A stretch of DNA of 38,011 bases, taken from positions 1 through 38,011 of IMG/VR virus record IMGVR_UViG_2585427747_000001. One strand, given 5' to 3'. Below are positions 2,302 to 37,881 of this stretch, one piece after another; positions within the stretch are counted from its first letter, which is position 1; each line of letters opens with the position of its first letter. A program made the translations under genes and the position numbers. The stretch comes from a virus (taxonomy: Duplodnaviria > Heunggongvirae > Uroviricota > Caudoviricetes). Below the pieces are notes generated by a model. It was not told where the DNA came from. It saw only the letters and a list, made by a program, of their open reading frames with translations, and ran no database searches.

Positions 2302-3126
2302 TCAGGCGGTGAAAGTACCAATAAAGGTTTCTACTTTGCTGTCTTTGAATTTCTCAACAAGCAGATCACGAAATTCGTTAGCCATATCTTCCTGCACCGC
2401 TTCCAGCTGAATAATGCGCAGAACCAGTACAGGACGATCGCCAGTGATAATGCTGAGGCGTAATTTAAACGGACGTTCTTTCAGACCTTCAAACGGAACG
2501 CATTTAAATTCAAATGCCACTGGCATAATGTCTTTGGTCTTCGCTTCGACAGATTCCATCAGGGAGCGTTTGCCGCTGAAGTCATTATCTTCAAAATCAG
2601 CGGTCTGGTTTGCTTCAATCGTGATTTTACGGATTGCCGCAGCCGCTTTTGTTGCCTGAATGGCGTCACCATTAGCATCAAAGCCCACAAGGTAGTCGGC
2701 CCAGTCTTCAATCCATTCTGCCAGTGATTTCTGGGAGTTACGCTCGCCGTTAACAGACAACAGGGCAGAGAACGGTGCTGTCTTTTTCAGTTTGAGAGTG
2801 GCGGTGTTATCTGCGTGACCTGGTTCATCAATAGTACCCAGGTTAAGCACACTGACGGCACGCATATTATCAGCATCGATAAAGCAGCGGGTGCCTTCAT
2901 CTGCAAGATCTTTAGAATAACGGGTAAAGTCATCGATGCTGGCAGTGGAAAGCGCACCACGGAAACGGAAGCGATTTAAATTAAATTTTTCCAGATCATG
3001 AATGCGGAAATTCTCAGGCAATGCCACAGCATCGGCACCAATCTTACTGATAATTTCATTAACACCCTGAGCAGAAATAAGGGCATGGATTTGATTAATT
3101 GCGGTTGCGTCTAAGTTCTGAGACAT
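2302..3126 (-). CDS. DUF2303 (YfdQ-like) prophage protein
   Basis: 274-aa ORF in the leftward early operon; resembles the YfdQ family of CPS-53/KplE1 by recollection; function unknown. Confidence 0.6.
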
Positions 3127-3191
3127 AATAAGTCCTCACTATATAAAGATATTCAGTGATGAGATAAATAATCAGTTAATTAAAAACGATA

Positions 3192-3554
3192 TTAACGACC
3201 TGCTGCGCGGAGTTTTCCGTCAGGTTCACCGGCAAGAGTCAGTAACTGTCCCTGGTCTTCCTGCAGAATAGTCAGGCGACCACCGCGATTGACATACATC
3301 GGCGTTTCGGTGGTGTCTTCTTCGGAAATTTTCCCGCGGTTAGTCGGGCGAACATATGAGAGTTTGTGTTTGATTTTCACACGGTTCTCATCAAATGGTT
3401 CGATTTCCAGGTTGAGTGAGACCTTACCTTTGGTTTTCGTGTTCATCACACCGGAAGCGACTTCACTGAGAACTGCGCCGATTTTGGTTTCAAATACGCC
3501 GCCGTCCAGCTCCCCGATAAATGCCTGCACATCAGTACTGCGTTCGCTAGCCAT
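3192..3554 (-). CDS. Hypothetical prophage protein (120 aa)
   Basis: The ORF track gives 226 aa, but the 5' extension runs through a GC-rich structured region; an internal ATG (MASERSTDVQAF…) is preceded by GAGGAG and gives a compact 120-aa product. Confidence 0.55.
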   Translation of the reverse strand: MASERSTDVQAFIGELDGGVFETKIGAVLSEVASGVMNTKTKGKVSLNLEIEPFDENRVKIKHKLSYVRPTNRGKISEEDTTETPMYVNRGGRLTILQEDQGQLLTLAGEPDGKLRAAGR

Positions 3555-4974: not shown

Positions 4975-5667
4975 TTAATTATGTCTCTTAAGGGTTTGCG
5001 ACTGACTGATTAAGACCTTTCCAAAGACCATGAATCGGTGTTCGTTTTCGCTAGTAATTCCCCATTCACGGTAAATCTGGTTATCAGAAATCACCAGCAG
5101 TTTGTCAGGAATCATTTGAAGTCTTTTAACGTATATTTTGTCATCAAAACCAAAGACATATATACCATCACCATCAAACTGATTGATGCTGACATCAACG
5201 AAGATGAGATCTCCTGGCTCAATGGTTGGACACATACTGTCCCCACGAACGTTGATAACTTTGATGTGATTGGCTGGTCGTCCGCCGAACATTGATACAG
5301 CATTATCAGTTCTGTATTCGATGGCATGAATCACATCAATGACATCACCGCCCTGGATAAGGCCATTTCCCGCACTGGCACTGATATCCAGCATTTCAAT
5401 ACGGAACACATCCTTCACCTGCGCAACATCCTCATTATTACTGTTTTTATATACAGTATTACTTTTGTGGGCAGAGGTAAAGAGATCAGCAATATCAACA
5501 CCTAAGCTCTTGGCAATATTACTCAGTGTTTGTTCGGTAAATTGTTTTTGCTTACCCGTTTCTAAGCGCGAGATGTTCGCCGCATCTACTCCTATTGCTT
5601 CAGCGAGATCGGCGATTTTCATGTTCTTCGCTTGGCGAAGTTGTCTGACTCGGTTTCCTATGTTCAT
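4975..5667 (-). CDS. CI-like prophage repressor (N-terminal HTH, C-terminal S24 LexA-type peptidase domain)
   Basis: N-terminal HTH (RVRQLRQAKNMKIADLAEAIGVDAANISRLETGKQ); 230 aa; divergent from a cro-like gene with operators between. Confidence 0.8.
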   Translation of the reverse strand: MNIGNRVRQLRQAKNMKIADLAEAIGVDAANISRLETGKQKQFTEQTLSNIAKSLGVDIADLFTSAHKSNTVYKNSNNEDVAQVKDVFRIEMLDISASAGNGLIQGGDVIDVIHAIEYRTDNAVSMFGGRPANHIKVINVRGDSMCPTIEPGDLIFVDVSINQFDGDGIYVFGFDDKIYVKRLQMIPDKLLVISDNQIYREWGITSENEHRFMVFGKVLISQSQTLKRHN

Positions 5668-11522: not shown

Positions 11523-11539
11523 TTTTGTGGAGAAAGTTG

Positions 11540-11890
11540 ATGCGTGATATGTATGAAGTATTGGACCGCTGGGGAGCATGGGCTGCAGCAGATAACAGTG
11601 GCGTGGACTGGCAGCCGATAGCAGCAGGCTTCAAGGGGCTTTTACCTCATGGCAAAAAGTCACGGATTCAGTGTGATGATGACGAAGGCATTATGATAGA
11701 CAGTTGTGTGGCTCGGTTGAGAAGGTATAAACCAGAGGAATATGAGCTCATCATAGCCCACTTTGTTATTGGTATCTCATTACGCACTATTGCCAAAAAG
11801 AGAAGGTGTTCAGATGGCACGATTAGAAAGGAATTGCAAACTGCAATTGGTTTTGTAGAGGGTATTACGAGCGTTATTGCATGTAAATAA
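11540..11890 (+). CDS. Late-gene antiterminator Q (QuuD-type)
   Basis: MRDMYEVLDRWGAWAAADNSGVDWQPIAAGFKGLL… closely parallels QuuD-type Q proteins; start trimmed to the internal Met. Confidence 0.75.
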   Translation: MRDMYEVLDRWGAWAAADNSGVDWQPIAAGFKGLLPHGKKSRIQCDDDEGIMIDSCVARLRRYKPEEYELIIAHFVIGISLRTIAKKRRCSDGTIRKELQTAIGFVEGITSVIACK

Positions 11891-12096: not shown

Positions 12097-13380
12097 CTAT
12101 GACCGTGAAAAGTAGTGATGGTTCAGTTCTTTTGCAAAATAGTGCTTACGTTTAACCCAGATAAAACCATCAGCTTTAGAAATGATTGCAACATCTATGG
12201 GGCCTCCCACTGTTTCAGTATCATCGGAGACCTTGCGCTTGAAAGCGGTTAAATTTACTAATGATTCAGCCATATAAGCTAAATCTTGCTTGGGTAAAAA
12301 CTCGATCATATTTACGACTTTGTCAACATAGTTTTCTCGGACAAAGCTATCAATACGCCCCTTGCAATCGGAAACAGTCCTGCGCACTACATCAACTATA
12401 GCATCCTTGGCTCCTTCGATATCTGAAGTGGGCACCAAATCTGTGATTACTGAATCAATACCATCAAGTAAATCGCCGATAGAACGTTGATACTCAGCAT
12501 GAAGATTTTGGATAAGATGTGAACTAGCTCCTTGCATGAAAGCAGAAACTTCATCCTCTTGCGCAAAGGGAGTCACTCCGCAATTAGGAGTGATGCAGCA
12601 CTTGTCAGCATCTGTGGTTTTCCTGATTTTATCATTAAAGAAGCCACAAACTTCATATGATAATACTTTAGGGTAATAGTCTTTATCGCCATAACCTGCA
12701 ATCACAATCCCAGAGACGGAACCAATATCACTTTGCTTGCATATCATAGCTGCCAATACATCACTAACTGCTTTTGTCAACTGTGGAGTTATGGATATTG
12801 AATCAAAGTCACTAAACTTTTGAGCAATGATGCGTTGGGTAACTGATGAAGCATAGGTTTGGGCTGCTTGTTCATCATCCGGAGTAAAACCATCAAAGTA
12901 ATTAATATCAGATAATTTTGTAAGGAGATCGTTGCAATAATTCGTGAGGTCTGTAACAAATTGATTCTTATCGAAGTTAACGAAATATGTTGGTTCGAGA
13001 CCTTCAGAAAAAGCATCAACAAGCATGCTGAATACAATCTCGCTCAGGAAGTGATAAAGATGAGCCTCACGCATACCTGGTGTGATGATTGATTTAGCCG
13101 ACTGTAGATAATTGAAGAAATCCTCAGCATATTCCTCCAAAGAGTCAAAACATTTAGAGCCTAAATCCTTTCTATAAGCCTTAATGATAAGCTCCCATGG
13201 AGCTGTGCAGAGATCACCAGTTCCATATACCATCAAACCTACAGGATGATGTTTAGTTAGAGCGAAAAGCTTTTCAGCGCCATTATAGATTTTATGTTTG
13301 CCGCCTCCAGAAATCGTTACAGCTGAATCTGCGGCTAAAGCTACTGCGGTCTTGTTAAATACGGCTATTTCTGCTGTCAT
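12097..13380 (-). CDS. Proteasome/HslV-like Ntn-hydrolase-domain protein (427 aa); AT-rich accessory gene in the Q-to-lysis slot
   Basis: N-terminus MTAEIAVFNKTAVALAADSAVTIS…VGLMVYGTGD mirrors HslV (Thr after the initiator Met, Asp at mature position 17, downstream Lys); C-terminal GGPIDVAIISKADGFIWV resembles the proteasome beta C-terminal strand; opposite strand to its neighbours; visibly low GC. Confidence 0.6.
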   Translation of the reverse strand: MTAEIAVFNKTAVALAADSAVTISGGGKHKIYNGAEKLFALTKHHPVGLMVYGTGDLCTAPWELIIKAYRKDLGSKCFDSLEEYAEDFFNYLQSAKSIITPGMREAHLYHFLSEIVFSMLVDAFSEGLEPTYFVNFDKNQFVTDLTNYCNDLLTKLSDINYFDGFTPDDEQAAQTYASSVTQRIIAQKFSDFDSISITPQLTKAVSDVLAAMICKQSDIGSVSGIVIAGYGDKDYYPKVLSYEVCGFFNDKIRKTTDADKCCITPNCGVTPFAQEDEVSAFMQGASSHLIQNLHAEYQRSIGDLLDGIDSVITDLVPTSDIEGAKDAIVDVVRRTVSDCKGRIDSFVRENYVDKVVNMIEFLPKQDLAYMAESLVNLTAFKRKVSDDTETVGGPIDVAIISKADGFIWVKRKHYFAKELNHHYFSRS

Positions 13381-13662: not shown

Positions 13663-13989
13663 ATGCCTCATAACCCAAATACCTGGCTGGAGTTGGTCCA
13701 GAGCTGGTGGCGTGGAGACACACCGCTGGGCGCAGTGATTATGTCGATCGTTATGGCTGGCTTGCGCATTGCCTATTTTGGCGGTGGTGGTGGCTGGAAA
13801 CGAAAAACGCTCGAGATTTTGCTCTGTGGTGCTCTGACGCTGACTTTTGCATCCGCTCTTGAGTATGTCGGATGGCCTAAATCTCTTTCTGTTGCCATTG
13901 GTGGCGGCGTTGGGCTGATCGGTGTCGATGCTATTCGTGGGGCTGCAATGCGAGTAATCGGTAACAAATTTGGTAGCTCGAAGGAGTAA
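13663..13989 (+). CDS. Holin (lambda S-like class I)
   Basis: 108 aa with hydrophobic segments and a charged C-terminus; directly upstream of the R-like endolysin. Confidence 0.75.
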   Translation: MPHNPNTWLELVQSWWRGDTPLGAVIMSIVMAGLRIAYFGGGGGWKRKTLEILLCGALTLTFASALEYVGWPKSLSVAIGGGVGLIGVDAIRGAAMRVIGNKFGSSKE

Positions 13990-13992
13990 TTT

Positions 13993-14469
13993 ATGCAGGC
14001 ACTAAATTCCCAGCGTAAAGCTTTCTTGGATATGGTTGCATGGTCAGAAGGAACGGATAACGGGCGACAACCGACACGTAACCACGGTTATGATGTCATT
14101 GTCGGTGGTGAACTGTTTACTGATTACTCCGATCATCCTCGCAAACTTGTCACGCTAAACCCGAAACTCAAATCAACAGCAGCCGGACGTTACCAGCTTC
14201 TTTCACGCTGGTGGGATGCTTACCGTAAACAGCTTGGCCTGAAAGATTTTTCTCCAGAAAGCCAGGACGCTGTAGCTCTGCAGCAGATTAAAGAGCGTGG
14301 CGCTTTACCGATGATTGACTGCGGCAATATTCGTCAGGCAATCGACCGTTGCAGCAATATCTGGGCGTCGTTACCTGGTGCAGGTTACGGTCAGTATGAA
14401 CATAAAATCGGCGACCTGATTGCCCGATTTAAAGAGGCTGGTGGGGAAGTAAATGAAGCTGAGATATAA
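13993..14469 (+). CDS. R: Endolysin, lambda R-type lytic transglycosylase
   Basis: Near-identity over long stretches to lambda R as recalled (NSQRKAFLDMVAWSEGTDNGRQPTRNHGYDVIVGGELFTDYSDHPRKLVTLNPKLKST…). Confidence 0.9.
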   Translation: MQALNSQRKAFLDMVAWSEGTDNGRQPTRNHGYDVIVGGELFTDYSDHPRKLVTLNPKLKSTAAGRYQLLSRWWDAYRKQLGLKDFSPESQDAVALQQIKERGALPMIDCGNIRQAIDRCSNIWASLPGAGYGQYEHKIGDLIARFKEAGGEVNEAEI

Positions 14470-14845
14470 GCTGGTTATTGTTGCCTTCTTTGTTACCGTT
14501 ATTGGTTCCTTCATCTGGTCTACCGGGCATTACTACAGCAAATATCAACACGAAAAGGAGCGTGCTGATGAGGCTGTACGAAATGCTGAATCAGCAACTG
14601 CCATTACCCGTAACGTTCTGCAATCACTGCAAATCATCAATACAGTTATAGAGGCTAACCAACATGCAAAACAGCAGATCGCACTGGAGTCACAGAGAAC
14701 CCAGGAAGATATCAAAGTGGCTGTTGCGGATGATGATTGTGCTGCACGTCCTGTGCCTGCTGCCGCTGCTGACCGGTTGCGGAAGTACGCGGACGGTTTA
14801 CGTGAGCGATCCGGTGGCACCGCTGCCAGCCAGCCTGACTTCTGA
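14453..14845 (+). CDS. Rz-like inner-membrane spanin
   Basis: N-terminal TM segment, then coiled-coil; follows the endolysin; contains the embedded Rz1 frame. Confidence 0.7.
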   Translation: MKLRYKLVIVAFFVTVIGSFIWSTGHYYSKYQHEKERADEAVRNAESATAITRNVLQSLQIINTVIEANQHAKQQIALESQRTQEDIKVAVADDDCAARPVPAAAADRLRKYADGLRERSGGTAASQPDF

Positions 14846-15002
14846 TACTCCAGTACCGTTTATACCCAATCCGCTGACGTATGGTACCAGTCTGGAGTTG
14901 AATGTTGCTCTATTGTCAGCCTTGGGACAATGTAATTTTGATAAAACTGGAATCAGAAATATTGAATCACGGCGCGCTATTTTGCATTCGAAAAATAAAT
15001 AG
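14730..15002 (+). CDS. Rz1-like outer-membrane lipoprotein spanin, embedded in the +1 frame of Rz
   Basis: Lipobox LLTGC after a hydrophobic signal (MMIVLHVLCLLPLLTGCGS); Pro-rich mature region; start at the internal Met of the 14664 ORF. Confidence 0.6.
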   Translation: MMIVLHVLCLLPLLTGCGSTRTVYVSDPVAPLPASLTSDTPVPFIPNPLTYGTSLELNVALLSALGQCNFDKTGIRNIESRRAILHSKNK

Positions 15003-15370
15003 CTCGAGTTATATTTTTCATTATCGTTGCGAATGCTCCTAATAAAGCTGTGTATTATGGTAATTTTATAAAGCCTATGGGTTTAAGTTCAGATGCTAGC
15101 GTTTTTATAGCGTAATGTAGCAGCTTACATAAAATATGCATCGTGATTAACTATTAGGCCAACCTTTTGGACCAATATGAAAGTGGAAGTTTATACAAAT
15201 CGTTTGTCGATGATTAAACATGTGTCTAGTAGCGCTAGTCATGAACAGGTTTATTACGTATCATTTTGTGTAGATTATCGAGAGTACAACTAGTAGAGCA
15301 GCTAATCTTTAGATAGTGCCAGTGATGTTCACTTGCGATAAACTAACCTTTTCATTCAGTGGAGGTTATT

Positions 15371-15805
15371 ATGTGGCATACATTACTTAACTGGCCTTGG
15401 GGAACTGTGTGGTCAGCTGTATCGGCTTTAGGTTCAATTGTAACTGTTACATTAGGTTTTTGGGCAATGAATGTTTGGCGGCGACAGGAGGCTCTGAAGG
15501 CCAAAATGGCTCTGAAAATGGCAGTGGCTGATTATTCAAATGCATTATCACAACTACCTTTATCTCTTAGTCGTAATGTTCGTATTGAAAAAAGGGCCGA
15601 GCTACGAGAGTTAAATCATAAATTAAATGCTGTTAATAATGCTTTTTTGATATGCGAACATATGTTGGAAAAATACCCGCGTGTAAACAGCGGTTGTCGT
15701 TCTTTATCTGTTGCCCACAAAGAATATATTAGAATGAGAGATAATAGTATTCAGGCGAAATATATTTGTCATAATATCCTTTCAGAACAGTTTGTATTCA
15801 AATGA
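15371..15805 (+). CDS. Hypothetical membrane protein in an AT-rich island after the lysis cassette
   Basis: N-terminal TM helix (LLNWPWGTVWSAVSALGSIVTVTLGFWAM); GGAGG RBS 5 nt upstream of the ATG; low-GC 930-bp island 15003-15930. Confidence 0.55.
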   Translation: MWHTLLNWPWGTVWSAVSALGSIVTVTLGFWAMNVWRRQEALKAKMALKMAVADYSNALSQLPLSLSRNVRIEKRAELRELNHKLNAVNNAFLICEHMLEKYPRVNSGCRSLSVAHKEYIRMRDNSIQAKYICHNILSEQFVFK

Positions 15806-15932
15806 AAATGAACGATTGGTATTTACTTGCCGTTTATTCATTGGATTGAAAAGTCTATTTAACAAACCGTGTTAAAGCGGTTTCTGATTGCAGTTATGGT
15901 TAGATATTTAACGAAAACTACAGGGGTAATAG

Positions 15933-16283
15933 ATGCCTCCACGAACCCCAAAAGCCTGCCGCGTTCGCGGCTGCCGCCATACCACAACTGACCAGTCAGG
16001 CTATTGCGAAAGCCACAAAAGCGAAGGCTGGAAGCAATACAAACCTGGACAATCTCGTCATCAGCGCGGTTATGGTTCGAAGTGGGACGCTATCCGCGCG
16101 CGTGTGCTGAAGCGTGACAAAGGTTTATGTCAGTTATGTCTGCGTGCCGGTGTGGTGCGTGAGGCGAAAACCGTTGACCACATCATCCCTAAAGCGCATG
16201 GCGGCACTGATGCCGACTGTAATCTGCAGAGTCTGTGTTGGCCGTGTCATAAGGCGAAGACGGCCCGTGAACGGTTAAAGTGA
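15933..16283 (+). CDS. HNH endonuclease (packaging-associated)
   Basis: HNH motifs (DHIIPKAHGG…NLQSLCWPCH) and an N-terminal Cys cluster; directly upstream of the terminase genes. Confidence 0.8.
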   Translation: MPPRTPKACRVRGCRHTTTDQSGYCESHKSEGWKQYKPGQSRHQRGYGSKWDAIRARVLKRDKGLCQLCLRAGVVREAKTVDHIIPKAHGGTDADCNLQSLCWPCHKAKTARERLK

Positions 16284-16307
16284 TAATAACTCTCAACTGT
16301 CTGAGGG

Positions 16308-16370
16308 GAGGGGCGGGTCACATCCCTGTGACCTGACGTCTTCCGGACTGCCCGCCCCATCGTTTTTTTA
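16308..16370 (+). terminator. GC-rich stem (gggcggg…cccgccc) with a nested hairpin, followed by TTTTTTT; terminator/structured element between HNH and the small terminase gene
   Basis: Read directly; could alternatively be part of a cos region. Confidence 0.5.
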
Positions 16371-16408
16371 TACCCGCGAAAAATGAAATTTAACCAGGAG
16401 TGCCGCAT

Positions 16409-16903
16409 ATGGCTGGAACGGCGGGGCGTTCCGGGCGTCGCCCCAAGCCAACGGCGCGCAAGGCGCTGGCCGGAAACCCCGGCAAGCGAGCCCTGAATAA
16501 AGATGAACCTGTTTTTACGCCTATCAAAGGTGTTGAGCCACCGGAGTGGTTCGCTGAAGAAGATCTCCCTCTCGCTACGATCATGTGGCAACTGACAACT
16601 AAAGAACTCTGCGGTCAGGGCCTGCTGTGCGTGACTGACCTCGCGGTGCTTGAGCGGTGGTGCGTGGCCTACGAGTTCTGGCGACGTGCCGTGAAAAATA
16701 TTGCCAGACAGGGCAACACCATCACCGGTGCAATGGGCGGTATGGTCAAAAATCCGGAGCTGACCGCCAAAAAAGAACAGGAGTCCGAGATGAGCAGTAC
16801 GGGGGCAATGCTCGGACTCGACCCCAGCAGCCGCCAGCGTCTGATTGGCCTGGCGGGGCAGAAGAAAGCCACTAACCCGTTTCTGAAAATTATCGAATCA
16901 TGA
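16409..16903 (+). CDS. Terminase small subunit (P27 family)
   Basis: N-terminus [14 protein letters not shown] typical of P27-type small terminases; start moved to the ATG. Confidence 0.75.
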
Positions 16904-18633
16904 GCCGGAAATCTTACCCCAACGTAAATGCAGCCAATCAGTATGCCCGTGATGTCGTGCGCGGAAAGATTGTGGCCTGCCAGTTTGTGATTCAGGCCTG
17001 CCAGCGCCATCTTGATGACCTGATGGCGGAAAAAAGTAAGTCGTTTCGTTACCGCTTCGACAAGGACCAGGCTGAACGGGCCGCGAAATTTATTCAGCTG
17101 TTGCCGCACACCAAGGGTGAGTGGGCATTCAAACGGATGCCCATCACGCTGGAGCCGTGGCAGCTCTTTGTGATCTGCTGCGCGTTTGGCTGGGTCAATA
17201 AAGGCTCCCGGCTGCGCCGCTTCCGGGAGGTGTATACCGAAATCCCCCGTAAGAACGGCAAATCGGCAATCTCTGCCGGTGTTGCCCTGTATTGTTTTGC
17301 CTGTGATAACGAGTTCGGCGCGGAAGTGTATTCCGGTGCCACGACGGAGAAACAGGCATGGGAAGTCTTTCGTCCGGCACGACTGATGTGTAAACGCACA
17401 CCCATGCTGACGGAAGCGTTCGGGATTGAGGTTAACGCCTCAAACATGAACCGTCCGGAGGATGGCGCGCGGTTTGAACCGCTGATCGGTAACCCCGGTG
17501 ATGGATCATCACCCCACTGTGCGGTGGTGGATGAATATCACGAGCACGCCACCGATGCGCTTTACACCACGATGCTTACCGGGATGGGGGCGCGACGTCA
17601 GCCACTGATGTGGGCCATTACTACTGCCGGGTACAACATTGAGGGGCCGTGCTACGACAAACGGCGGGAAGTTATCGAGATGCTCAACGGTTCGGTACCC
17701 AACGATGAACTGTTCGGGATCATCTATACCGTTGACGAAGGTGACGACTGGACCAACCCACAGGTGCTGGAAAAAGCCAACCCGAATATCGGGGTGTCGG
17801 TTTACCGTGAGTTTTTGTTAAGTCAGCAACAGCGTGCGAAAAATAACGCCCGTCTGGCAAACGTCTTTAAAACAAAACACCTCAATATCTGGGTGTCGGC
17901 GCGTTCGGCGTATTTCAACCTGGTGAGCTGGCAGAGCTGCGAGGATAAATCACTGACTCTTGAGCAATTCGAGGGGCAGCCGTGCATTCTGGCCTTTGAC
18001 CTGGCGCGTAAACTGGATATGAACAGCATGGCGCGACTTTATACCCGCGAGATTGACGGTAAAACGCATTACTACAGTGTGGCCCCGCGTTTCTGGGTAC
18101 CGTATGACACGGTGTACAGCGTCGAGAAAAATGAAGATCGCCGGACAGCCGAACGCTTTCAGAAATGGGTGGAAATGGGCGTCCTGACCGTTACCGATGG
18201 TGCAGAGGTGGATTATCGCTACATCCTCGAAGAGGCCAAAGCGGCGAACAAAATCAGCCCGGTCAGCGAGTCACCCATCGACCCCTTCGGGGCGACCGGG
18301 CTGTCACATGACCTTGCTGATGAAGACCTGAATCCCGTCACTATCGTCCAGAACTTCACCAATATGTCCGATCCGATGAAAGAGCTGGAAGCAGCGATTG
18401 AATCGGGACGTTTTCATCATGACGGCAATCCCATCATGACCTGGTGTATCGGCAACGTGGTCGGCAAAAACATGCCGGGTAACGATGATGTGGTGAAACC
18501 CGTCAAAGAGCAGGCGGAAAACAAAATTGACGGTGCAGTTGCGCTGATTATGGCGGTTGGCAGAGCCATGCTGTACGAGAAAGAAGACACGCTATCTGAT
18601 CACATTGAGTCCTACGGGATCCGCTCGCTTTAA
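16900..18633 (+). CDS. Terminase large subunit
   Basis: 577 aa; position and size; ATPase/nuclease-domain-like composition; overlaps the small-subunit stop. Confidence 0.8.
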
Positions 18634-18644
18634 CTGAGGTAATT

Positions 18645-18827
18645 ATGATCATGCTGATTTTAGCGCCTCTGGTGGGCGTGCTGGGTGCGCTTTTGCTGGC
18701 GTATGGTGCCTGGCTGATTTATCCCCCGGCGGGTTTTGTTGTTGCCGGGGCGCTGTGCCTGTTCTGGTCGTGGCTGGTGGCGCGATATCTCGACCGTACA
18801 CAGTCGTCTGTCGGCGGAGGTAAATAG
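18645..18827 (+). CDS. Small hypothetical membrane protein
   Basis: 60 aa, two hydrophobic segments; tightly packed between the large terminase and portal genes. Confidence 0.4.
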
Positions 18828-20068
18828 TGTTCTTTTCGGGATTATTTCAACGAAAAAGTGACGCGCCGGTGACGACGCCAGCAGAGCTGGCAGACGCTAT
18901 CGGGCTGTCCTACGACACCTATACCGGAAAGCAGATCAGCAGTCAGCGGGCCATGCGACTGACGGCGGTTTTTTCCTGCGTCAGGGTGCTGGCAGAGTCG
19001 GTCGGGATGTTGCCCTGCAACCTGTATCACCTGAACGGCAACCTGAAACAGAGAGCCACCGGCGAACGTCTGCATAAGCTGATTTCCACGCATCCCAATG
19101 GCTATATGACGCCGCAGGAGTTTTGGGAGCTGGTGGTCACCTGTCTGTGCCTGCGGGGAAACTTTTACGCCTACAAAGTGAAAGCATTTGGCGAAGTGGC
19201 TGAACTGCTACCCGTCGATCCCGGCTGTGTGGTACCGAAGCTTAACAGTAGCTGGGAGCCGGTCTATCAGGTCACATTCCCGGACGGCTCCACGGATGTG
19301 CTGAGCCAGGAAGATATCTGGCATGTGCGCACGCTGACGCTGGACGGACTGGTGGGGCTGAATCCCATCGCCTATGCCCGCGAGGCAATATCGCTGGCGG
19401 CAGCGACCGAAGAGCACGGGGCCAGACTGTTCAGCAATGGTGCGGTGACGTCGGGTGTGTTGCGTACAGAGCAGACGCTGTCAGATCAGGCTTACGAGCG
19501 TCTGAAGAAAGATTTTGAGGAGCGTCACACCGGGCTTGGCAATGCTCACCGCCCGATGATCCTTGAGATGGGGCTGGACTGGAAGTCGATGGCGCTGAAC
19601 GCTGAGGACAGCCAGTTCCTGGAAACCCGCAAGTTTCAGCTTGAAGAAATCTGTCGTCTGTTCCGTGTGCCATTGCACATGGTGCAGAACACTGATCGCG
19701 CCACCTTCAACAATATCGAAGAGCTGGGGCTGGGATTTATCAACTATTCACTGGTGCCGTATCTGACCCGCATTGAGCAGCGGATCAACACCGGACTGGT
19801 ACGAAAAAGTAAGCAGGGCGTTTATTACGCCAAATTTAACGCCGGGGCGTTACTGCGCGGGGATATGAAGTCCCGTTTTGAAGCCTACGCTACCGGGATC
19901 AACTGGGGAATTTACTCTCCCAATGACTGCCGCGACCTGGAAGATATGAATCCGCGTCCCGGTGGGGATGTCTATCTCACACCGATGAACATGACCACGA
20001 AACCCTCCGATGGCAGTAAAGCCGGTAAGCAGAAGGATAACGCCAATGCAGACGAAACAACGTCTTGA
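18827..20068 (+). CDS. Portal protein (HK97 family)
   Basis: 413 aa; position after the terminase; HK97-portal-like sequence. Confidence 0.8.
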   Translation: MFFSGLFQRKSDAPVTTPAELADAIGLSYDTYTGKQISSQRAMRLTAVFSCVRVLAESVGMLPCNLYHLNGNLKQRATGERLHKLISTHPNGYMTPQEFWELVVTCLCLRGNFYAYKVKAFGEVAELLPVDPGCVVPKLNSSWEPVYQVTFPDGSTDVLSQEDIWHVRTLTLDGLVGLNPIAYAREAISLAAATEEHGARLFSNGAVTSGVLRTEQTLSDQAYERLKKDFEERHTGLGNAHRPMILEMGLDWKSMALNAEDSQFLETRKFQLEEICRLFRVPLHMVQNTDRATFNNIEELGLGFINYSLVPYLTRIEQRINTGLVRKSKQGVYYAKFNAGALLRGDMKSRFEAYATGINWGIYSPNDCRDLEDMNPRPGGDVYLTPMNMTTKPSDGSKAGKQKDNANADETTS

Positions 20069-28228: not shown

Positions 28229-28675
28229 TTACTGTGCGAACACGCAATTTCGGCCTGATGGGGAGCCGACAATTCTGGACATTTTTTCGCAAATAACAGT
28301 TACTTGTTCTCCTTTTTTAAGAGCAGCAGCTGTTGATTTTTCAGAGTCTTGCATCTCCATTCTTGCTGGCATGAATTCATTTTCAGTTCTGAATTTAATA
28401 ATTATAGAGTCAGTAAAGTCCTTATCAATGGATTGTACGATACCTCTAACGGCGATTAATTTACCTTTTAACTGTTCATCGGTAGCGACTTCATTTTCTT
28501 CATACTCTTTAAACAGCTGTCGAGCAGTAGTGTTGTAGATTTCTTTTTGCGGTGCCGCAGCTTCCGTATCGGATGAGTATGAAGAATTAGAGCCTTTATC
28601 GTTATTGCCTGCAAAATATCCAATAATCACCAACCCGATGAAAATATATAAAATCCATTTTAATAATTTCTTCAT
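28229..28675 (-). CDS. Membrane-anchored/secreted OB-fold-like protein; AT-rich accessory gene inside the tail module
   Basis: N-terminal signal/TM (MKKLLKWILYIFIGLVIIGYFAG), no lipobox Cys; the mature region resembles small periplasmic OB-fold proteins; opposite strand to all neighbours; AT-rich. Confidence 0.55.
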   Translation of the reverse strand: MKKLLKWILYIFIGLVIIGYFAGNNDKGSNSSYSSDTEAAAPQKEIYNTTARQLFKEYEENEVATDEQLKGKLIAVRGIVQSIDKDFTDSIIIKFRTENEFMPARMEMQDSEKSTAAALKKGEQVTVICEKMSRIVGSPSGRNCVFAQ

Positions 28676-35412: not shown

Positions 35413-36537
35413 TTAAGATATTCTTTTAGCTATAGAATGACCTATATTTATAAACGGTTTTTCTATTACGTTATATATCAAGTAAGATAGGCTTATAGAA
35501 ATTATGAGCGATGATATATAAATGGCAAACGATCTATGTTCAGTGCTAACACCAATGCTGGAACCGTAAAACTCAATAAACTGTATAACAGGAACATGAA
35601 TCAGATAAAGTGAATATGATATTCCACCAAGAGCAACAAGTGATTTATTGAATGAAATAACTTTATTATTTTCTAGAATAATAACACATAAAACAATCAG
35701 AAATGCAATATATGCAGATCGCGTCAAACCATGTCCTTCAGACACCCCATTAAGCCAAAAAACAAACATCATTCCTAGAATGAAAACGCATAAACTATTT
35801 ATAATAGCATTATTCATTCTTTTATGCCTAAGTAAAGGCATTGTCTCTGATATAATCATCCCTAAAATGAAATCATATACTATAGGGTTGCCTATGAATC
35901 CTATATGAGAAAACACTCCTGTTTTTGCAATATTGAATGATTGGGCGTCAATTACTACCGAGTGGTTAAAGTAAAGAGAAATAATTGTACTTACAGCAAC
36001 TAGAAAACATGATGTGATTAATACCCTGTATTTTATACTTAATGACATGGATATTGCGAAAATAAAATAAAAATATATCTCGTACCCAAGTGACCATGAA
36101 ACAATTAGTGTTCCCCACCCATAATATGGCGGTAGAGTTGAGCCATCTAAAGGGATGAGAAGAAATGATTTTATAATATTATTTATAGAAAAAACACCAC
36201 CCCATGATACGCCTGTGTAAATATTGTGGTAAAAAAGAAAAACATAAACGCTTAATACTATTGCGTAAACAGGATAAATTCTAAAAAATCTCTTTACAAG
36301 AAATGAAGCGGTATTTCTTAAAGATGTTTTCGCTAAGTTTTTAGTTGAGTATGATATTATAAATCCGCTTATTATAAAAAACAATTCAACTCCAAATATA
36401 GCATTCGCGGTTATCCTGTCCATGAAAGAACCAGGATCTACTTGCCCGAAAAGACCTCTATTATGACCAATAGCTACAGCAAGAGCTGCAATTCCACGAA
36501 GCGCTTCTATTCCGTATAATTTATCTGTTTTCATCAA
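35413..36537 (-). CDS. Acyltransferase family 3 integral membrane protein (O-antigen acetylase-like lysogenic conversion gene)
   Basis: 374 aa, ~10 predicted TM segments; N-terminal YGIEALRGIAALAVAIGH motif typical of the OafA/Oac acyltransferase-3 family; very AT-rich; next to the integrase at attR. Confidence 0.75.
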   Translation of the reverse strand: MMKTDKLYGIEALRGIAALAVAIGHNRGLFGQVDPGSFMDRITANAIFGVELFFIISGFIISYSTKNLAKTSLRNTASFLVKRFFRIYPVYAIVLSVYVFLFYHNIYTGVSWGGVFSINNIIKSFLLIPLDGSTLPPYYGWGTLIVSWSLGYEIYFYFIFAISMSLSIKYRVLITSCFLVAVSTIISLYFNHSVVIDAQSFNIAKTGVFSHIGFIGNPIVYDFILGMIISETMPLLRHKRMNNAIINSLCVFILGMMFVFWLNGVSEGHGLTRSAYIAFLIVLCVIILENNKVISFNKSLVALGGISYSLYLIHVPVIQFIEFYGSSIGVSTEHRSFAIYISSLIISISLSYLIYNVIEKPFINIGHSIAKRIS

Positions 36538-36677: not shown

Positions 36678-37835
36678 CTATGATACCTTCTCCTCAAGCC
36701 AGTCCGCCCACCACTGCATCATTTCTCTGCGCTTATCGAGATACTGAGCATGGTTGTAAATACCGCGCACAGATCCGCCGTTGGCATGTGCCAGCTGCAC
36801 TTCAATAGCGTCAGCAGGCCATTCGTGCTCGTTCATAATCGTGCTGAATTCATGCCTGAATCCGTGACCGCTTTCCAGACCTTCATAGCCGATTTGTTTG
36901 ATCACAAGCAATACCGCGTTCTCGCAGATTGGCTTCTTCTTATCGTTGCGCCCGGCAAAAACAAACTCTGAGACTGGTTTGGTGATTGAGCTTAGCGTAG
37001 TGAGAAGTTCAACCACCTGGTCTGACATCGGGACCACATGAATTTTGCGTCCCTTCATCACACTGGCGTCGATGGTGATAATCCTGTTTTCAAAATCGAC
37101 GTTCTTCCATAGCATGGAACGAAGCTCTTTCGTTCTTAGGGCTGTATAACGTAAAACTTTTGTCGCAATGAGCGATACGATACTTCCTGAAAATGTTGCC
37201 AGTGCTTTGTTGAATGCAGGCATCTGGTCTGCTGGAAGGAACGGGAAGTTCTTCTTGCGGTATCCTTTCATGGCGTCTGCAAGGTCAGGTGCCGGGTTAT
37301 ATTTAGCCCTTCCGGTGACAATAGCGTAACGAAAAACCTCGCCGCATCTTCTGCGGGCTTTGTTGGCTCGCTCCATTGCACCGCGATCTTCAAATCTGCG
37401 GATTACTTCCAGCAGTTGCATCGGCTCAATATCCTGAATCTCAAGACCGCCGATGATGGGTAAAATGTCGTCATCAAACATTTTGGCAAGTTCAGTTGCA
37501 TAGCCTACTGACCAGACTTGCTTCTTGTGCTCGTACCATTCCTTGTAAATCGCACTAAATGAATTGTTGTTAGACGAAGCCTTTTTCGCCTTTACCGGAT
37601 CGATGCCAACCGAGATGTCTTTCCTCGCAGTCCATGCCTTATCCCTTGCTTCCTGCAAAGTCATAAGCGGATATTTTCCGACAGTCAGGATTTTCTCCTT
37701 ACCGTCAATCTTGTAGCGAAGCTGCCATACCTTTTTCCCTGATACAGGGACATAAAGGTACAGGCCATTACCATCGAGTAGGCGGTATGGTTTTTCTTTC
37801 GGCTTTGCTGCTTCAATCTGCTTAACGGTGAGCAT
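36678..37835 (-). CDS. intS: Tyrosine integrase (P4-type), IntS-like
   Basis: Start trimmed to MLTVKQIEAAKPKEK…; C-terminal catalytic region (…HGFRHEF…LAHANGGSVRGIYNH…Y); adjacent to attR and the tRNA 3' end. Confidence 0.85.
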   Translation of the reverse strand: MLTVKQIEAAKPKEKPYRLLDGNGLYLYVPVSGKKVWQLRYKIDGKEKILTVGKYPLMTLQEARDKAWTARKDISVGIDPVKAKKASSNNNSFSAIYKEWYEHKKQVWSVGYATELAKMFDDDILPIIGGLEIQDIEPMQLLEVIRRFEDRGAMERANKARRRCGEVFRYAIVTGRAKYNPAPDLADAMKGYRKKNFPFLPADQMPAFNKALATFSGSIVSLIATKVLRYTALRTKELRSMLWKNVDFENRIITIDASVMKGRKIHVVPMSDQVVELLTTLSSITKPVSEFVFAGRNDKKKPICENAVLLVIKQIGYEGLESGHGFRHEFSTIMNEHEWPADAIEVQLAHANGGSVRGIYNHAQYLDKRREMMQWWADWLEEKVS

Positions 37836-37881
37836 GGGTAAAAATCCGGTGGGTAAAATTATTTTATCCACTTTTTACCCG
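37836..37881. promoter_or_regulatory. Three TTTTACCC motifs (two on the minus strand, one on the plus strand) over the intS start/promoter in the attR arm
   Basis: gggtaaaa at ~37836-37843 and ~37851-37858, ttttaccc at ~37873-37880; shared with the attL arm. Confidence 0.4.

What the first reader, a model, noticed from the sequence alone, without database searches (positions are those of the whole stretch)
15003..15930. AT-rich island with a single membrane-protein gene between the lysis cassette and the packaging genes
About 930 bp of visibly low-GC DNA (a 350-bp AT-rich leader plus a 144-aa ORF with an N-terminal TM helix) is inserted between Rz/Rz1 and the HNH endonuclease. This is a classic accessory-gene position; the product has no recognisable catalytic motif. 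Small single-pass membrane proteins here commonly act in superinfection exclusion or abortive infection.
Basis: partly seen in the sequence, partly recalled or inferred. Interest (0 to 1): 0.55.

Follow-up and report, generated by a model that had tools for sequence, protein, structure and literature searches.

The report
Prophage moron encoding membrane-anchored helical protein
This is a small add-on gene cassette (a "moron") in a variable slot of an SfV-like E. coli prophage; it encodes an uncharacterised membrane-anchored protein, and its upstream sequence looks built so that the protein is made from the dormant prophage but not from late lytic transcripts.

Summary
Window 14966-15932 is low-GC DNA (0.36 against 0.49 and 0.55 in the flanks). 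It lies between Rz/Rz1 and the HNH gene of an SfV-like prophage, inside the Q-dependent late operon.

Related phages have this junction empty (about 26 nt) or filled with unrelated cargo. Only 27-28 of 5426 complete E. coli genomes carry this island.

The 144-aa ORF (15371-15805) is a real gene under purifying selection (dN/dS 0.13-0.29). It belongs to phrog_6169, which has no known function and no Pfam, NCBIfam, PADLOC or PDB relatives. The predicted protein is one N-out/C-in membrane helix followed by a cytoplasmic four-helix bundle.

Relatives down to about 20% identity occur only in temperate Enterobacterales phages:
- after the lysis genes: 47 of 71 loci
- between TerL and portal: 10 loci
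- in a tail module: 2 loci

The new result is a conserved upstream cassette. A -10-like TAnAAT hexamer directly abuts an anti-Shine-Dalgarno arm that pairs with the ribosome site. I infer lysogen-only translation, with read-through late transcripts folded shut as in IS10. Many homologues also have intrinsic terminators.

A role in phage exclusion is plausible but untested. Verdict: an ordinary kind of element, from an uncharacterised family, with an interesting regulatory design.

The parts
14966..15932 (+). The variable (island) segment as defined by comparison with related phages
   Evidence: Homology to the empty-site phage vB_EcoM-720R4 and to six other junction variants ends between 14936 and 14969. 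It resumes at 15927-15953, and at 15933 in most. The empty site has Rz1 stop + ~26 nt + HNH ATG. GC 0.358.
15003..15295 (+). Distal AT-rich leader; apparently an unconstrained spacer
   Evidence: Only 78% identity with 62 gap columns against the 89% allele (L037), while the ORF is 95.6% identical. No blastn match in the phage collection. No Rfam match. The 38-aa ORF at 15177-15293 has no ribosome-binding site. Homologous cassettes in other phages lack this stretch.
15296..15370 (+). Conserved 5' cassette that travels with the gene (promoter-like region plus 5'UTR)
   Evidence: About 75 nt upstream of the ATG align across homologues sitting in unrelated contexts; sequence further upstream does not align. 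Covariance model R1 built on this region hits only upstream of family genes in 523 kb of loci, both strands.
15316..15321 (+). -35-like hexamer GTGCCA (4/6 to TTGACA), 17 nt from the -10-like hexamer
   Evidence: Read from the sequence. The motif (A/G)GTGCC is shared with L005, L016, L038, L042 and L043; other subfamilies have TCGGCA at 18 nt. A weak element, assigned by inference.
15339..15344 (+). -10-like hexamer TAAACT (keeps T-12, A-11, T-7; 4/6 to TATAAT)
   Evidence: In alignment A4 the T and the final T are invariant, and the A's at positions 2 and 5 are at least 90% conserved, across 32 upstream regions. A hexamer with T1, A2, T6 and at least 5/6 matches starts at -36..-28 in 31/37 family genes, against 27/728 control genes and 22/177 AT-rich controls. 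The window's own copy is one of the six that fall below 5/6.
15344..15368 (+). Hairpin that sequesters the Shine-Dalgarno site: 5' arm UAACCUUU (15344-15351) pairs with GGAGGUUA (15361-15368)
   Evidence: Minimum-free-energy fold of -45..+3 (-7.0 kcal/mol for this allele). Simple hairpins of at least 7 bp over the SD occur in 19/36 family genes against 22/262 control genes. Covariation is modest: 77.4% of cells paired against 74.0% shuffled (5/500), and 38-62% when partners are slid.
15371..15805 (+). 144-aa ORF, member of phrog_6169: N-terminal membrane helix plus four-helix bundle
   Evidence: phrog_6169 at 2.8e-57. Homologues at 63-70% identity, and 66 cluster representatives at E<1e-3, all 51-195 aa apart from one 966-aa coiled-coil hit. 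dN/dS 0.13-0.29. AlphaFold2 pLDDT 79, pTM 0.63.
15401..15472 (+). Predicted transmembrane helix (about residues 11-34), inferred N-out / C-in
   Evidence: Hydrophobic window and flank charges across 43 family members: N-tail K+R mean 0.42, and the 15 residues after the helix K+R mean 4.47. Orientation is inferred from the positive-inside rule, not measured.
15806..15932 (+). Conserved 3' tail with two hairpins; the second is a weak terminator-like stem-loop at 15863-15882 followed by UUUCUGAUU
   Evidence: 96% identical to the 89% allele, higher than the leader. Fold. The consensus terminator scan found none here. Clear intrinsic terminators follow the gene in L005, L013, L016, L024, L038, L039, L042, L043, L051 and L057.
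14664..15002 (+). Left boundary gene: Rz1/LysC o-spanin (context)
   Evidence: PF23793 3.8e-15; phrog_456 8.7e-27.
15933..16283 (+). Right boundary gene: HNH endonuclease of the packaging module (context)
   Evidence: PF01844 5.2e-15; phrog_144 5.4e-44.

Best explanation
The region is a moron: a self-contained, horizontally exchanged gene cassette. It sits in the hypervariable Rz1-HNH junction of an SfV-like temperate prophage, inside the Q-dependent late operon and on the same strand.

**Anatomy (shown).**
- A poorly conserved AT-rich spacer.
- A conserved ~75-nt promoter-like region and 5'UTR.
- A 144-aa gene of the uncharacterised family phrog_6169.
- A conserved 3' tail with weak terminator-like hairpins.

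**Expression (inferred from the sequence).**
- The gene has its own sigma-70-type promoter: -35-like GTGCCA, 17 nt, -10-like TAAACT.
- The 5' arm of a hairpin that pairs with the Shine-Dalgarno site starts at the last base of the -10 hexamer.
- A transcript starting about 7 nt downstream of the -10 therefore lacks that arm. Its ribosome site is open, so the protein is made in the lysogen.
- Long Q-antiterminated late transcripts read through from upstream and carry the arm. They fold back and hide the ribosome site.
- This is the logic of IS10 'fold-back inhibition'. It would keep the protein off during the phage's own lytic growth.

**Product.**
- Shown by prediction only: a single-pass inner-membrane protein with a short periplasmic N-tail and a cytoplasmic four-helix bundle.
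- The bundle is preceded by a highly conserved juxtamembrane motif, W-[RS]-x-Q-[DE]-x-L-K-A-K.

**Function (inferred, weakest step).** A lysogen-expressed protein acting at the cytoplasmic face of the inner membrane to exclude or abort superinfecting phages.
For: **Accessory status.**
- The island is in 27-28 of 5426 complete E. coli genomes, while the junction occurs empty or with other cargo in many more.
- Low GC and low GC3.

**Real gene.** 66 cluster representatives, dN/dS 0.13-0.29, phrog_6169.

**Mobile cassette.**
- The same family sits behind four or more different lysis modules and in front of several terminase types.
- It also lies between TerL and portal and in a tail module, always co-oriented with the late genes.
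- Divergent alleles (about 18% and 89% identity, plus one frameshifted copy) occupy the very same Rz-HNH slot in other SfV-like phages.

**Own promoter.** The TAnAAT hexamer is near-invariant at -32 +/- 1: 31/37 family genes against 3.7% of control genes.

**Hairpin.**
- It is predicted in 33/36 members.
- Stems of at least 7 bp occur in 53% of members against 8% of controls.
- There are compensatory variants, for example CACCUCUC/GGGAGGUG and AUCUCAU/GUGAGGU.
- The covariation statistics are modest.
- The motif is found only upstream of family genes.

**Terminators.** Intrinsic terminators follow many homologues, even inside the TerL-portal interval.

**Late-operon context.** Q antiterminator at 11525-11890, then holin at 13663.

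**Topology.**

**Defence context.** Abi_alpha genes lie next to family members in two different arrangements.

**Published precedents.**
- HK97 gp15 is a moron-encoded inner-membrane exclusion protein expressed from the prophage (PMC3594210).
- phi80 TaiEcA is a lysogen-expressed defence gene embedded in the Q-dependent late operon, and its level falls when Q is expressed (PMC11364771).
Against: - No transcription start site, expression or phenotype data exist for any family member.
- The generic promoter scan of the region found no more sites than shuffled sequence (4 against 3.4) and did not flag this one. It found no terminator.
- The window's own -10 is only 4/6, and the -35 is weak and not conserved between subfamilies.
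- Covariation support for the hairpin is modest. The alignment used was fitted to the structure.
- Family members are related, so the enrichment counts are not independent.
- SD-region pairing is common in control genes by the looser measure (59%).
- A few members (L014, L024) lack the hairpin.
- No PADLOC, Pfam or NCBIfam defence match.
- A mainly cytoplasmic domain is not what classical injection blockers look like.
Confidence: 0.45

Rival explanations
1. A lysogenic-conversion factor unrelated to phage exclusion. The membrane-anchored bundle modulates a host inner-membrane protein (a sensor kinase, transporter, or stress or virulence pathway) and benefits the lysogen directly.
For: The moron anatomy is the same as in the best explanation. 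Other lysogenic-conversion cargo is present in this prophage, for example an O-antigen acyltransferase-like gene next to the integrase. The TM helix has conserved small-residue motifs and the juxtamembrane motif is invariant, which suggests a specific membrane partner. There is no match to any defence model.
Against: No homology to any known host-modulating small membrane protein. The family is confined to prophages, with rapid divergence, allele replacement in one slot and tandem paralogues. This pattern is more typical of conflict genes. Abi_alpha neighbours.
Confidence: 0.25
2. A late-expressed accessory of the phage's own lytic cycle, such as a lysis-timing regulator or antiholin-like factor, or a membrane tether for assembly. 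It would be co-transcribed with the late operon. The hairpin would be a translational throttle or timer rather than an insulator.
For: Same strand as the late genes and inside the Q-dependent unit. 47 of 71 loci lie directly behind lysis genes. The cytoplasmic domain could contact holin cytoplasmic tails. A hairpin over the SD would lower translation from the long transcript.
Against: Absent from most otherwise near-identical phages, so dispensable. Also found between TerL and portal and in a tail module. The conserved -10 hexamer and the downstream terminators argue for an autonomous unit. No match to holin, antiholin or spanin families, and a complete holin/endolysin/Rz/Rz1 set is already present.
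Confidence: 0.15
3. The hairpin is part of the gene's own transcript and works as a sensor, for example an RNA thermometer or a target opened by a trans-acting RNA or protein. Translation would then be conditional in the lysogen rather than insulated from read-through.
For: The stem is short and partly U:G-rich in the window allele (UAACCUUU/GGAGGUUA, -7.0 kcal/mol), reminiscent of fourU-type thermometers (my own knowledge). The weak -35 leaves room for a start site further upstream.
Against: The invariant TA...T hexamer directly abuts, or in L057 overlaps, the 5' arm. Any transcript started by that hexamer must therefore lack most of the arm. Most alleles have much more stable G:C stems of -10 to -14 kcal/mol.
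Confidence: 0.12
4. A non-functional remnant or spurious ORF in junk AT-rich DNA.
For: Low GC, no domain hits, and the distal leader is unconstrained.
Against: dN/dS 0.13-0.29. Full-length conservation across 66 cluster representatives. A conserved ribosome site and upstream cassette. A confident fold.
Confidence: 0.02

Closest known systems
HK97 gp15 moron (superinfection exclusion protein; Juhala et al. 2000; Cumby et al. 2012, as summarised in PMC3594210)
   Same: Extra DNA relative to sister phages. Deviant GC. Co-oriented inside a late operon. Encodes a small single-pass inner-membrane protein. Followed by a terminator. The gp15 upstream region also shows a -10-like TACGCT abutting CUUUCCUU, which can pair with the AAGGAGG ribosome site.
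   Different: No sequence relationship (hhalign probability 0.3%). gp15 is 62 aa with no large soluble domain and derives from the host YebO family. It sits in the tail operon. Its exclusion activity is demonstrated, whereas nothing is demonstrated here.
phi80 TaiEcA/AtiEcA (tail assembly inhibition; PMC11364771)
   Same: A lysogen-expressed accessory or defence gene embedded in the Q-controlled late operon of a lambdoid prophage. Its expression falls when late transcription is on. The general problem of avoiding self-harm during the phage's own lytic cycle is the same.
   Different: TaiEcA is divergently oriented (a 'noncontiguous operon') and paired with a counter-defence gene. It is a 26-kDa protein that blocks tail assembly. 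Here the gene is co-oriented, single, and membrane-anchored, and the proposed shut-off is an RNA fold-back.
IS10 transposase 'fold-back inhibition' (Davis, Simons & Kleckner 1985; my own knowledge, paper not held)
   Same: A sequence just upstream of the element's own transcription start is complementary to the ribosome-binding region. Only read-through transcripts from outside carry it and are translationally silent.
   Different: That is a transposase gene in an insertion sequence, not a phage moron. It was demonstrated experimentally; here it is inferred from conserved geometry only.
Lambda bor, and other morons next to the lysis cassette (my own knowledge)
   Same: Accessory gene in the interval between the lysis genes and cos/terminase of a lambdoid phage; expressed from the prophage.
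   Different: bor is an outer-membrane lipoprotein on the opposite strand, with a serum-resistance role. It is unrelated in sequence and topology.
i-spanin Rz
   Same: About 130-150 aa, an N-terminal membrane helix followed by a helical domain with conserved cysteines, located at the end of the lysis cassette.
   Different: The charge bias is opposite: N-out/C-in here, against N-in/C-out for Rz. There is no embedded or adjacent lipoprotein partner, no spanin profile match, and a true Rz/Rz1 pair already lies immediately upstream.

Membership tests
Moron (Juhala/Hendrix definition, as stated in PMC3594210) | Extra DNA compared with closely related phages | tested here: met
   The empty junction in vB_EcoM-720R4 is Rz1 stop + ~26 nt + HNH ATG. 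The island is in 27-28 of 5426 E. coli genomes.
Moron (Juhala/Hendrix definition, as stated in PMC3594210) | [quoted passage not shown] | tested here: met
   0.358 against 0.489 and 0.550; GC3 0.283 against 0.42-0.64.
Moron (Juhala/Hendrix definition, as stated in PMC3594210) | Own promoter | tested here: inconclusive
   A -10-like hexamer is near-invariant across the family (31/37 against 3.7% of controls). However, the window copy is 4/6, the -35 is weak, the generic scan did not flag it, and there are no start-site data.
Moron (Juhala/Hendrix definition, as stated in PMC3594210) | Own terminator | tested here: inconclusive
   Clear intrinsic terminators follow at least 10 homologues. In the window there is only a weak stem-loop at 15863-15882, and the scan found none.
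Moron (Juhala/Hendrix definition, as stated in PMC3594210) | Expressed from the repressed prophage | not testable with these tools
   Needs RNA or protein data from a lysogen.
phrog_6169 (PHROGs v4, unknown function) | Significant full-length profile match | tested here: met
   E 2.8e-57, residues 3-144 on profile positions 2-164 of 165.
HK97 gp15 / YebO family | Sequence homology to gp15 | tested here: not met
   hhalign of family alignment A2 against gp15: probability 0.3%.
Known anti-phage defence systems (PADLOC-DB v2.0.0) | Match to any defence protein model | tested here: not met
   No hit for the window protein. Among 44 family members there are only two isolated hits, at E 0.002-0.007.
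Superinfection exclusion / abortive infection (functional class) | Reduces plating or productive infection of other phages when expressed | not testable with these tools
   Needs plating-efficiency assays.
i-spanin (Rz-like) | Type II (N-in, C-out) topology, periplasmic coiled coil, cognate o-spanin lipoprotein gene | tested here: not met
   Positive charges follow the helix instead of preceding it. No spanin Pfam or PHROG match. No lipoprotein ORF is embedded or adjacent. Rz/Rz1 are already present.
Holin / antiholin | Match to a holin family, or obligatory linkage to the lysis cassette | tested here: not met
   No holin profile match. 12 of 71 loci lie outside the lysis region. A lambda-family holin is present at 13663-13989.
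IS10-type fold-back insulation (mechanistic analogy, not a family) | An anti-SD segment lies upstream of the element's own start site and pairs with the ribosome site | tested here: inconclusive
   The geometry is conserved: the -10 abuts the 5' arm. Stems are enriched. Covariation is modest. The start site is not mapped.

The most novel reading that the evidence does not exclude
phrog_6169 proteins are a new family of prophage-encoded inner-membrane exclusion or abortive-infection proteins. Their conserved promoter-embedded anti-Shine-Dalgarno hairpin is a dedicated insulator: it allows translation only from the lysogenic transcript and silences the gene in Q-antiterminated late read-through RNA, so the phage avoids self-inhibition. 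The similar layout upstream of HK97 gene 15 hints that this could be a more general design rule for co-oriented morons inside late operons.
Probability: 0.25. Interest if true: 0.65.

Novelty: new member of a known kind. Interest (0 to 1): 0.45.

Why it matters
Morons are the main route by which temperate phages change their hosts, yet most of their products have no known function. This work turns one anonymous ORF into a defined family with four usable properties:
- a clear host range (temperate Enterobacterales phages)
- a predicted topology and fold
- preferred insertion slots
- a testable expression model

If the fold-back model holds, it answers a practical question. A gene placed in the same orientation inside a strongly transcribed late operon could be kept lysogen-specific without an antisense arrangement. 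The model would also give a sequence signature for finding other lysogen-only genes.

If the protein proves to be an exclusion factor, it would add a defence family missing from current catalogues.

Tried and rejected
- **Generic promoter/terminator scan of 14800-16450.** 4 promoter-like sites against 3.4 expected, no terminators. Uninformative, and it missed the family-conserved hexamer.
- **Rfam at E<=1 over 14800-16450.** Nothing.
- **Pfam, NCBIfam and PADLOC.** Run on the protein and on 44 family members. Only isolated chance-level hits, for example SLATT_1 at 0.007 and '1TM effector' at 0.007.
- **PDB sequence profile search.** Nothing below E 0.2.
- **Foldseek against viral structures.** Nothing at E<=0.001; the best hit is an uncharacterised HP1 protein at E 0.077.
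- **afdb50 library.** Not available.
- **The search for related loci.**
  - With the wide alignment it failed for lack of a conserved stretch.
  - The one genome-contig scan returned a single locus.
- **tblastn in 50,697 phage records.** Only Enterobacter phage CobraSix and Salmonella phage 118970_sal3.
- **Distal leader.** No similarity anywhere in the phage collection. Rejected as an RNA gene or gene remnant; treated as spacer.
- **Spanin and holin readings.** Rejected; see the membership tests.
- **Loose 'SD paired in the MFE' measure.** Abandoned because 59% of control genes also pass it.
- **15-nt inverted repeat flanking the island (14945-14959 / 15881-15895).** Considered as a possible mobile-element end. 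Rejected as probably chance: the left arm lies in Rz1 coding sequence, and the two arms do not co-vary in the 89% allele.
- **Other cargo genes in the same slot.** They do not share the hairpin design.
- **Literature.** Searches for the family, accessions or mechanism found nothing.
Full report
**1. What is there.**

The window is a complete SfV/ST64B-like temperate prophage. Its main genes are:

| Feature | Coordinates | Strand |
|---|---|---|
| CI-like repressor | 4975-5667 | - |
| Q antiterminator | 11525-11890 | + |
| Lambda-family holin | 13663-13989 | + |
| Endolysin | 13993-14469 | + |
| Rz | 14453-14845 | + |
| Rz1/LysC | 14664-15002 | + |
| HNH endonuclease | 15933-16283 | + |
| TerS | 16412-16903 | + |
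| TerL | 16900-18633 | + |
| Portal | 18827-20068 | + |
| Acyltransferase | 35413-36537 | - |
| Integrase | 36678-37871 | - |

These assignments rest.

The flagged stretch is truly low in GC: 0.358 for 15003-15930, against 0.489 for the lysis genes and 0.550 for the packaging genes. GC3 of the ORF is 0.283, against 0.42-0.64 in the neighbours.

It contains one credible gene, 15371-15805 (144 aa), preceded by GGAGG. The leader is 368 bp rather than 350.

**2. It is an insertion into a hypervariable slot.**

Homology to related phages stops at about 14965, inside the last 37 nt of Rz1. It resumes exactly at the HNH start codon, 15933. In phage vB_EcoM-720R4 the junction is simply Rz1 stop, about 26 nt, HNH ATG.

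Other relatives carry different cargo at this junction:
- a 168-aa protein (vB_EcoM-689R6)
- non-coding DNA (SfIV)
- two small ORFs
- a GrlR-family regulator
- a 169-aa protein
- a minus-strand 124-aa protein

None of these belongs to the family studied here.

Among 5426 complete E. coli genomes, 1313 match some part of the 2-kb query that spans the flanks. Only 27 carry the island in full, and one more has it cut by an IS5 element.

**3. The gene is real and belongs to an uncharacterised family.**

It matches phrog_6169 (unknown function) at 2.8e-57. It matches nothing in Pfam, NCBIfam, PADLOC or the PDB.

Homologues at 63-70% identity occur in Hafnia, Enterobacter, Salmonella and E. coli. 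An exhaustive profile search found 66 cluster representatives at E<1e-3, nearly all 82-195 aa. More distant members come from Pectobacterium and Serratia.

dN/dS against homologues is 0.13-0.29.

AlphaFold2 (pLDDT 79, pTM 0.63) predicts one long helix over residues 10-60, then three further helices packing into a four-helix bundle. Structure searches return only generic helical bundles.

Across 43 members, the N-terminal tail carries on average 0.42 Lys+Arg. The 15 residues after the hydrophobic helix carry 4.47. By the positive-inside rule this is an N-out/C-in protein with the bundle in the cytoplasm. That orientation is an inference.

The most conserved protein segment is the juxtamembrane motif W-[RS]-x-Q-[DE]-x-L-K-A-K-x-x-[FL]-K.

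**4. Where the family lives.**

I examined 71 loci carrying a family member, many of them redundant. In 70 of them, including this window, the gene is co-oriented with the flanking late genes.
- In 47 loci a recognised lysis gene lies within four genes upstream. In 27 of these a packaging gene lies within four genes downstream.
- In 10 loci (CobraSix-like phages) the gene lies between TerL and portal.
- In 2 loci (one Serratia prophage) it lies inside the tail/baseplate module.
- 12 loci were unclassifiable, mostly short contigs.

These counts come, and are summed.

The lysis and terminase modules around the gene differ widely:
- Endolysins: GH24, GH19, GH108, Phage_lysozyme.
- Spanins: DUF2570, DUF2514, Rz.
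- Terminases: P27-type, Nu1/GpA, Terminase_2/6.

So the cassette moves independently of its neighbours.

In other SfV-like phages the very same Rz-HNH slot holds:
- an allele only about 18% identical (L019)
- an 89% allele with a 7-residue duplication in the membrane helix (L036, L037)
- a frameshifted copy (Salmonella phage 118970_sal3)

Four distinct loci carry tandem paralogues, with a fifth locus a near-duplicate. Abi_alpha genes sit next to the gene in two different arrangements.

Only two of 50,697 deposited phage genomes carry a member. The IMG/VR hits include many from isolate genomes, so the family belongs to temperate phages.

**5. The upstream cassette is the main new result.**

About 75 nt upstream of the ATG are conserved among homologues whose further-upstream DNA is unrelated.

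In an alignment of 32 distinct upstream regions, the only invariant or near-invariant positions form TAnnAT. These are the positions that define a sigma-70 -10 hexamer. The sequences seen are TAAAAT, TAGAAT and TACAAT, with TAAACT in the window. In about 20 of 33 distinct regions the hexamer starts exactly at -32, and in 27 within 3 nt of it.

A hexamer with T1, A2, T6 and at least 5/6 matches starts at -36..-28 in 31 of 37 family genes. The figure is 27 of 728 for other genes in the same loci, and 22 of 177 for AT-rich controls.

Zero to three nucleotides after the hexamer begins a segment complementary to the ribosome site. The typical form is AACCUCCUU, a 5-9 nt loop, then AAGGAGGUU. In the window, UAACCUUU (15344-15351) pairs with GGAGGUUA (15361-15368).

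How well is the hairpin supported?
- Simple hairpins of at least 7 bp over the ribosome site occur in 19 of 36 family genes against 22 of 262 controls. For at least 8 bp the counts are 12/36 against 9/262.
- Variants change both arms together: CACCUCUC/GGGAGGUG, AUCUCAU/GUGAGGU, GCCUC/GAGGC, UUCUCCA/UGGAGAA.
- The formal covariation statistics are modest. 77.4% of cells are paired against 74.0% in shuffles (5/500 reach that value), and 38-62% when partners are slid. The alignment was fitted to the model.
- A covariance model of the whole motif hits only upstream of family genes in 523 kb, both strands. One of those hits is a copy not used to build the model.

**6. Reading of the cassette (inference).**

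RNA polymerase normally starts about 7 nt after the -10 hexamer (established knowledge). A transcript from this promoter would therefore begin inside or after the 5' arm, leaving the ribosome site free.

Transcripts arriving from upstream would include the arm and fold the ribosome site away. The gene sits in the Q-antiterminated late unit, and Q-modified polymerase reads through terminators (established knowledge of lambdoid phages).

This is the arrangement described for IS10 transposase as fold-back inhibition (my own knowledge; the paper is not in the library).

Many homologues are followed by textbook intrinsic terminators, including those between TerL and portal. This fits an autonomous unit embedded in a read-through operon.

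In the window the promoter elements are weaker (-10 4/6; -35 GTGCCA 4/6). The 3' hairpin at 15863-15882 is only terminator-like, and the generic scan flagged neither.

The distal leader, 15003-15295, is the least conserved part of the island and matches nothing. I treat it as spacer.

**7. Function.**

Nothing is shown. The best-supported statement is that this is a moron in the sense of Juhala and Hendrix: extra DNA, deviant GC, and its own promoter and terminator for expression from the repressed prophage (PMC3594210).

Several features are indirect arguments for a role in phage-phage conflict:
- the rarity of the island
- allele replacement within one slot
- tandem paralogues
- Abi_alpha neighbours
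- a design that would keep the protein out of the phage's own lytic cycle

There are precedents in HK97 gp15 and in phi80 TaiEcA, a lysogen-expressed defence gene inside the late operon whose level drops when Q is expressed.

Against this, there is no similarity to any catalogued defence protein. The bulk of the protein is predicted to be cytoplasmic. A host-modulating lysogenic-conversion role is nearly as likely.

A lytic-cycle role (lysis timing or assembly) is less likely, for three reasons: the gene is dispensable in sister phages, it occurs outside lysis regions, and it carries its own promoter-like and terminator elements.

**8. Comparison with known systems.**

It is not a spanin: the topology is opposite, there is no lipoprotein partner, and Rz/Rz1 are already present. 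It is not a holin by any profile. It is not related to HK97 gp15 (hhalign probability 0.3%).

Curiously, the region upstream of HK97 gene 15 shows the same layout: TACGCT, then CUUUCCUU, a 5-nt loop, then AAGGAGG. It is the single best hit of model R1 in a 5-kb stretch, but at only 10.9 bits (E 1.5), so this is an anecdote. Other cargo genes in the Rz-HNH slot do not show the design.

**9. Verdict.**
- The 'accessory island' interpretation is supported.
- The exclusion or abortive-infection function remains a reasonable guess.

The element is an ordinary kind of thing, a moron, from a family nobody has characterised. Its conserved promoter/anti-SD arrangement yields a specific, cheaply testable model of lysogen-only expression.

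Noticed in passing
window 12097-13380 (-): A 427-aa ORF with low GC (about 0.39), on the strand opposite to the late genes. It lies between the Q antiterminator (11525-11890) and the holin (13663). It matches phrog_5990 (unknown function, 1.3e-236) and has no Pfam or PADLOC hit. A divergent gene interrupting the late operon recalls the 'noncontiguous operon' layout of phi80 taiEcA.
   Followed up: partly
window 28229-28675 (-): A 148-aa minus-strand ORF with low GC (0.42) inside the tail module. It matches Pfam tRNA_anti-like (OB fold) at 2.9e-19. Probably another moron.
   Followed up: partly
window 35413-36537 (-) and 36678-37871 (-): An Acyl_transf_3 acyltransferase (9.5e-29) in low-GC DNA next to the integrase. 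This layout is typical of O-antigen-modifying serotype-converting phages.
   Followed up: partly
L080 (HK97, NC_002167) 161-206, upstream of gene 15: The archetypal moron gp15 has a -10-like TACGCT directly followed by CUUUCCUU, which can pair with its AAGGAGG ribosome site. This is the same layout as in the family studied here. Model R1 places its only hit in 5 kb there, but weakly (10.9 bits, E 1.5).
   Followed up: partly
L062 5409-6426; L064, L069, L070, L071 5429-6438: Two family paralogues in tandem, each with its own TAGAAT/anti-SD/SD cassette.
   Followed up: partly
L016-L018 5029-5808; L056 downstream neighbour: An Abi_alpha (PF14337) gene lies immediately next to the family gene: upstream in one phage type and downstream in another.
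   Followed up: no
L036 313-768; L037 4604-5059: A common 151-aa allele (89% identical) carries a 7-residue duplication inside the membrane helix (SAVSALGSVVSALGSI). It also has the better -10 hexamer TAAAAT.
   Followed up: no
L004 (Salmonella phage 118970_sal3) 1849-2486: A family member split by a frameshift into two annotated ORFs, in the same Rz-HNH slot. It still has a TACAAT hexamer and a CUCACU/AGUGAG hairpin.
   Followed up: partly
window 14945-14959 and 15881-15895: A 15-nt inverted repeat (14/15 complementary) brackets the island. The left arm lies in Rz1 coding sequence, and the arms do not co-vary in the 89% allele. Probably chance.
   Followed up: yes
window 15806-15932: The 127-nt tail between the ORF and the HNH gene is more conserved (96%) than the leader (78%) in the diverged allele. 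It folds into two hairpins. Its role (terminator, or HNH expression signal) is unresolved.
   Followed up: partly
L012 (E. coli 1506, NZ_CP059288) 3001-3457: A copy of the island is truncated after 291 bp by an IS5-family (ISKpn26) insertion, with loss of the rest of the prophage.
   Followed up: yes
L048, L050, L059, L062, L066, L075: In one phage group the family gene sits among DNA-modification-type genes (a methyltransferase, a DAM-like-phage1 + GNAT-phage-like protein, and a DUF488-N3a gene on the opposite strand) between the lysis and packaging modules.
   Followed up: no
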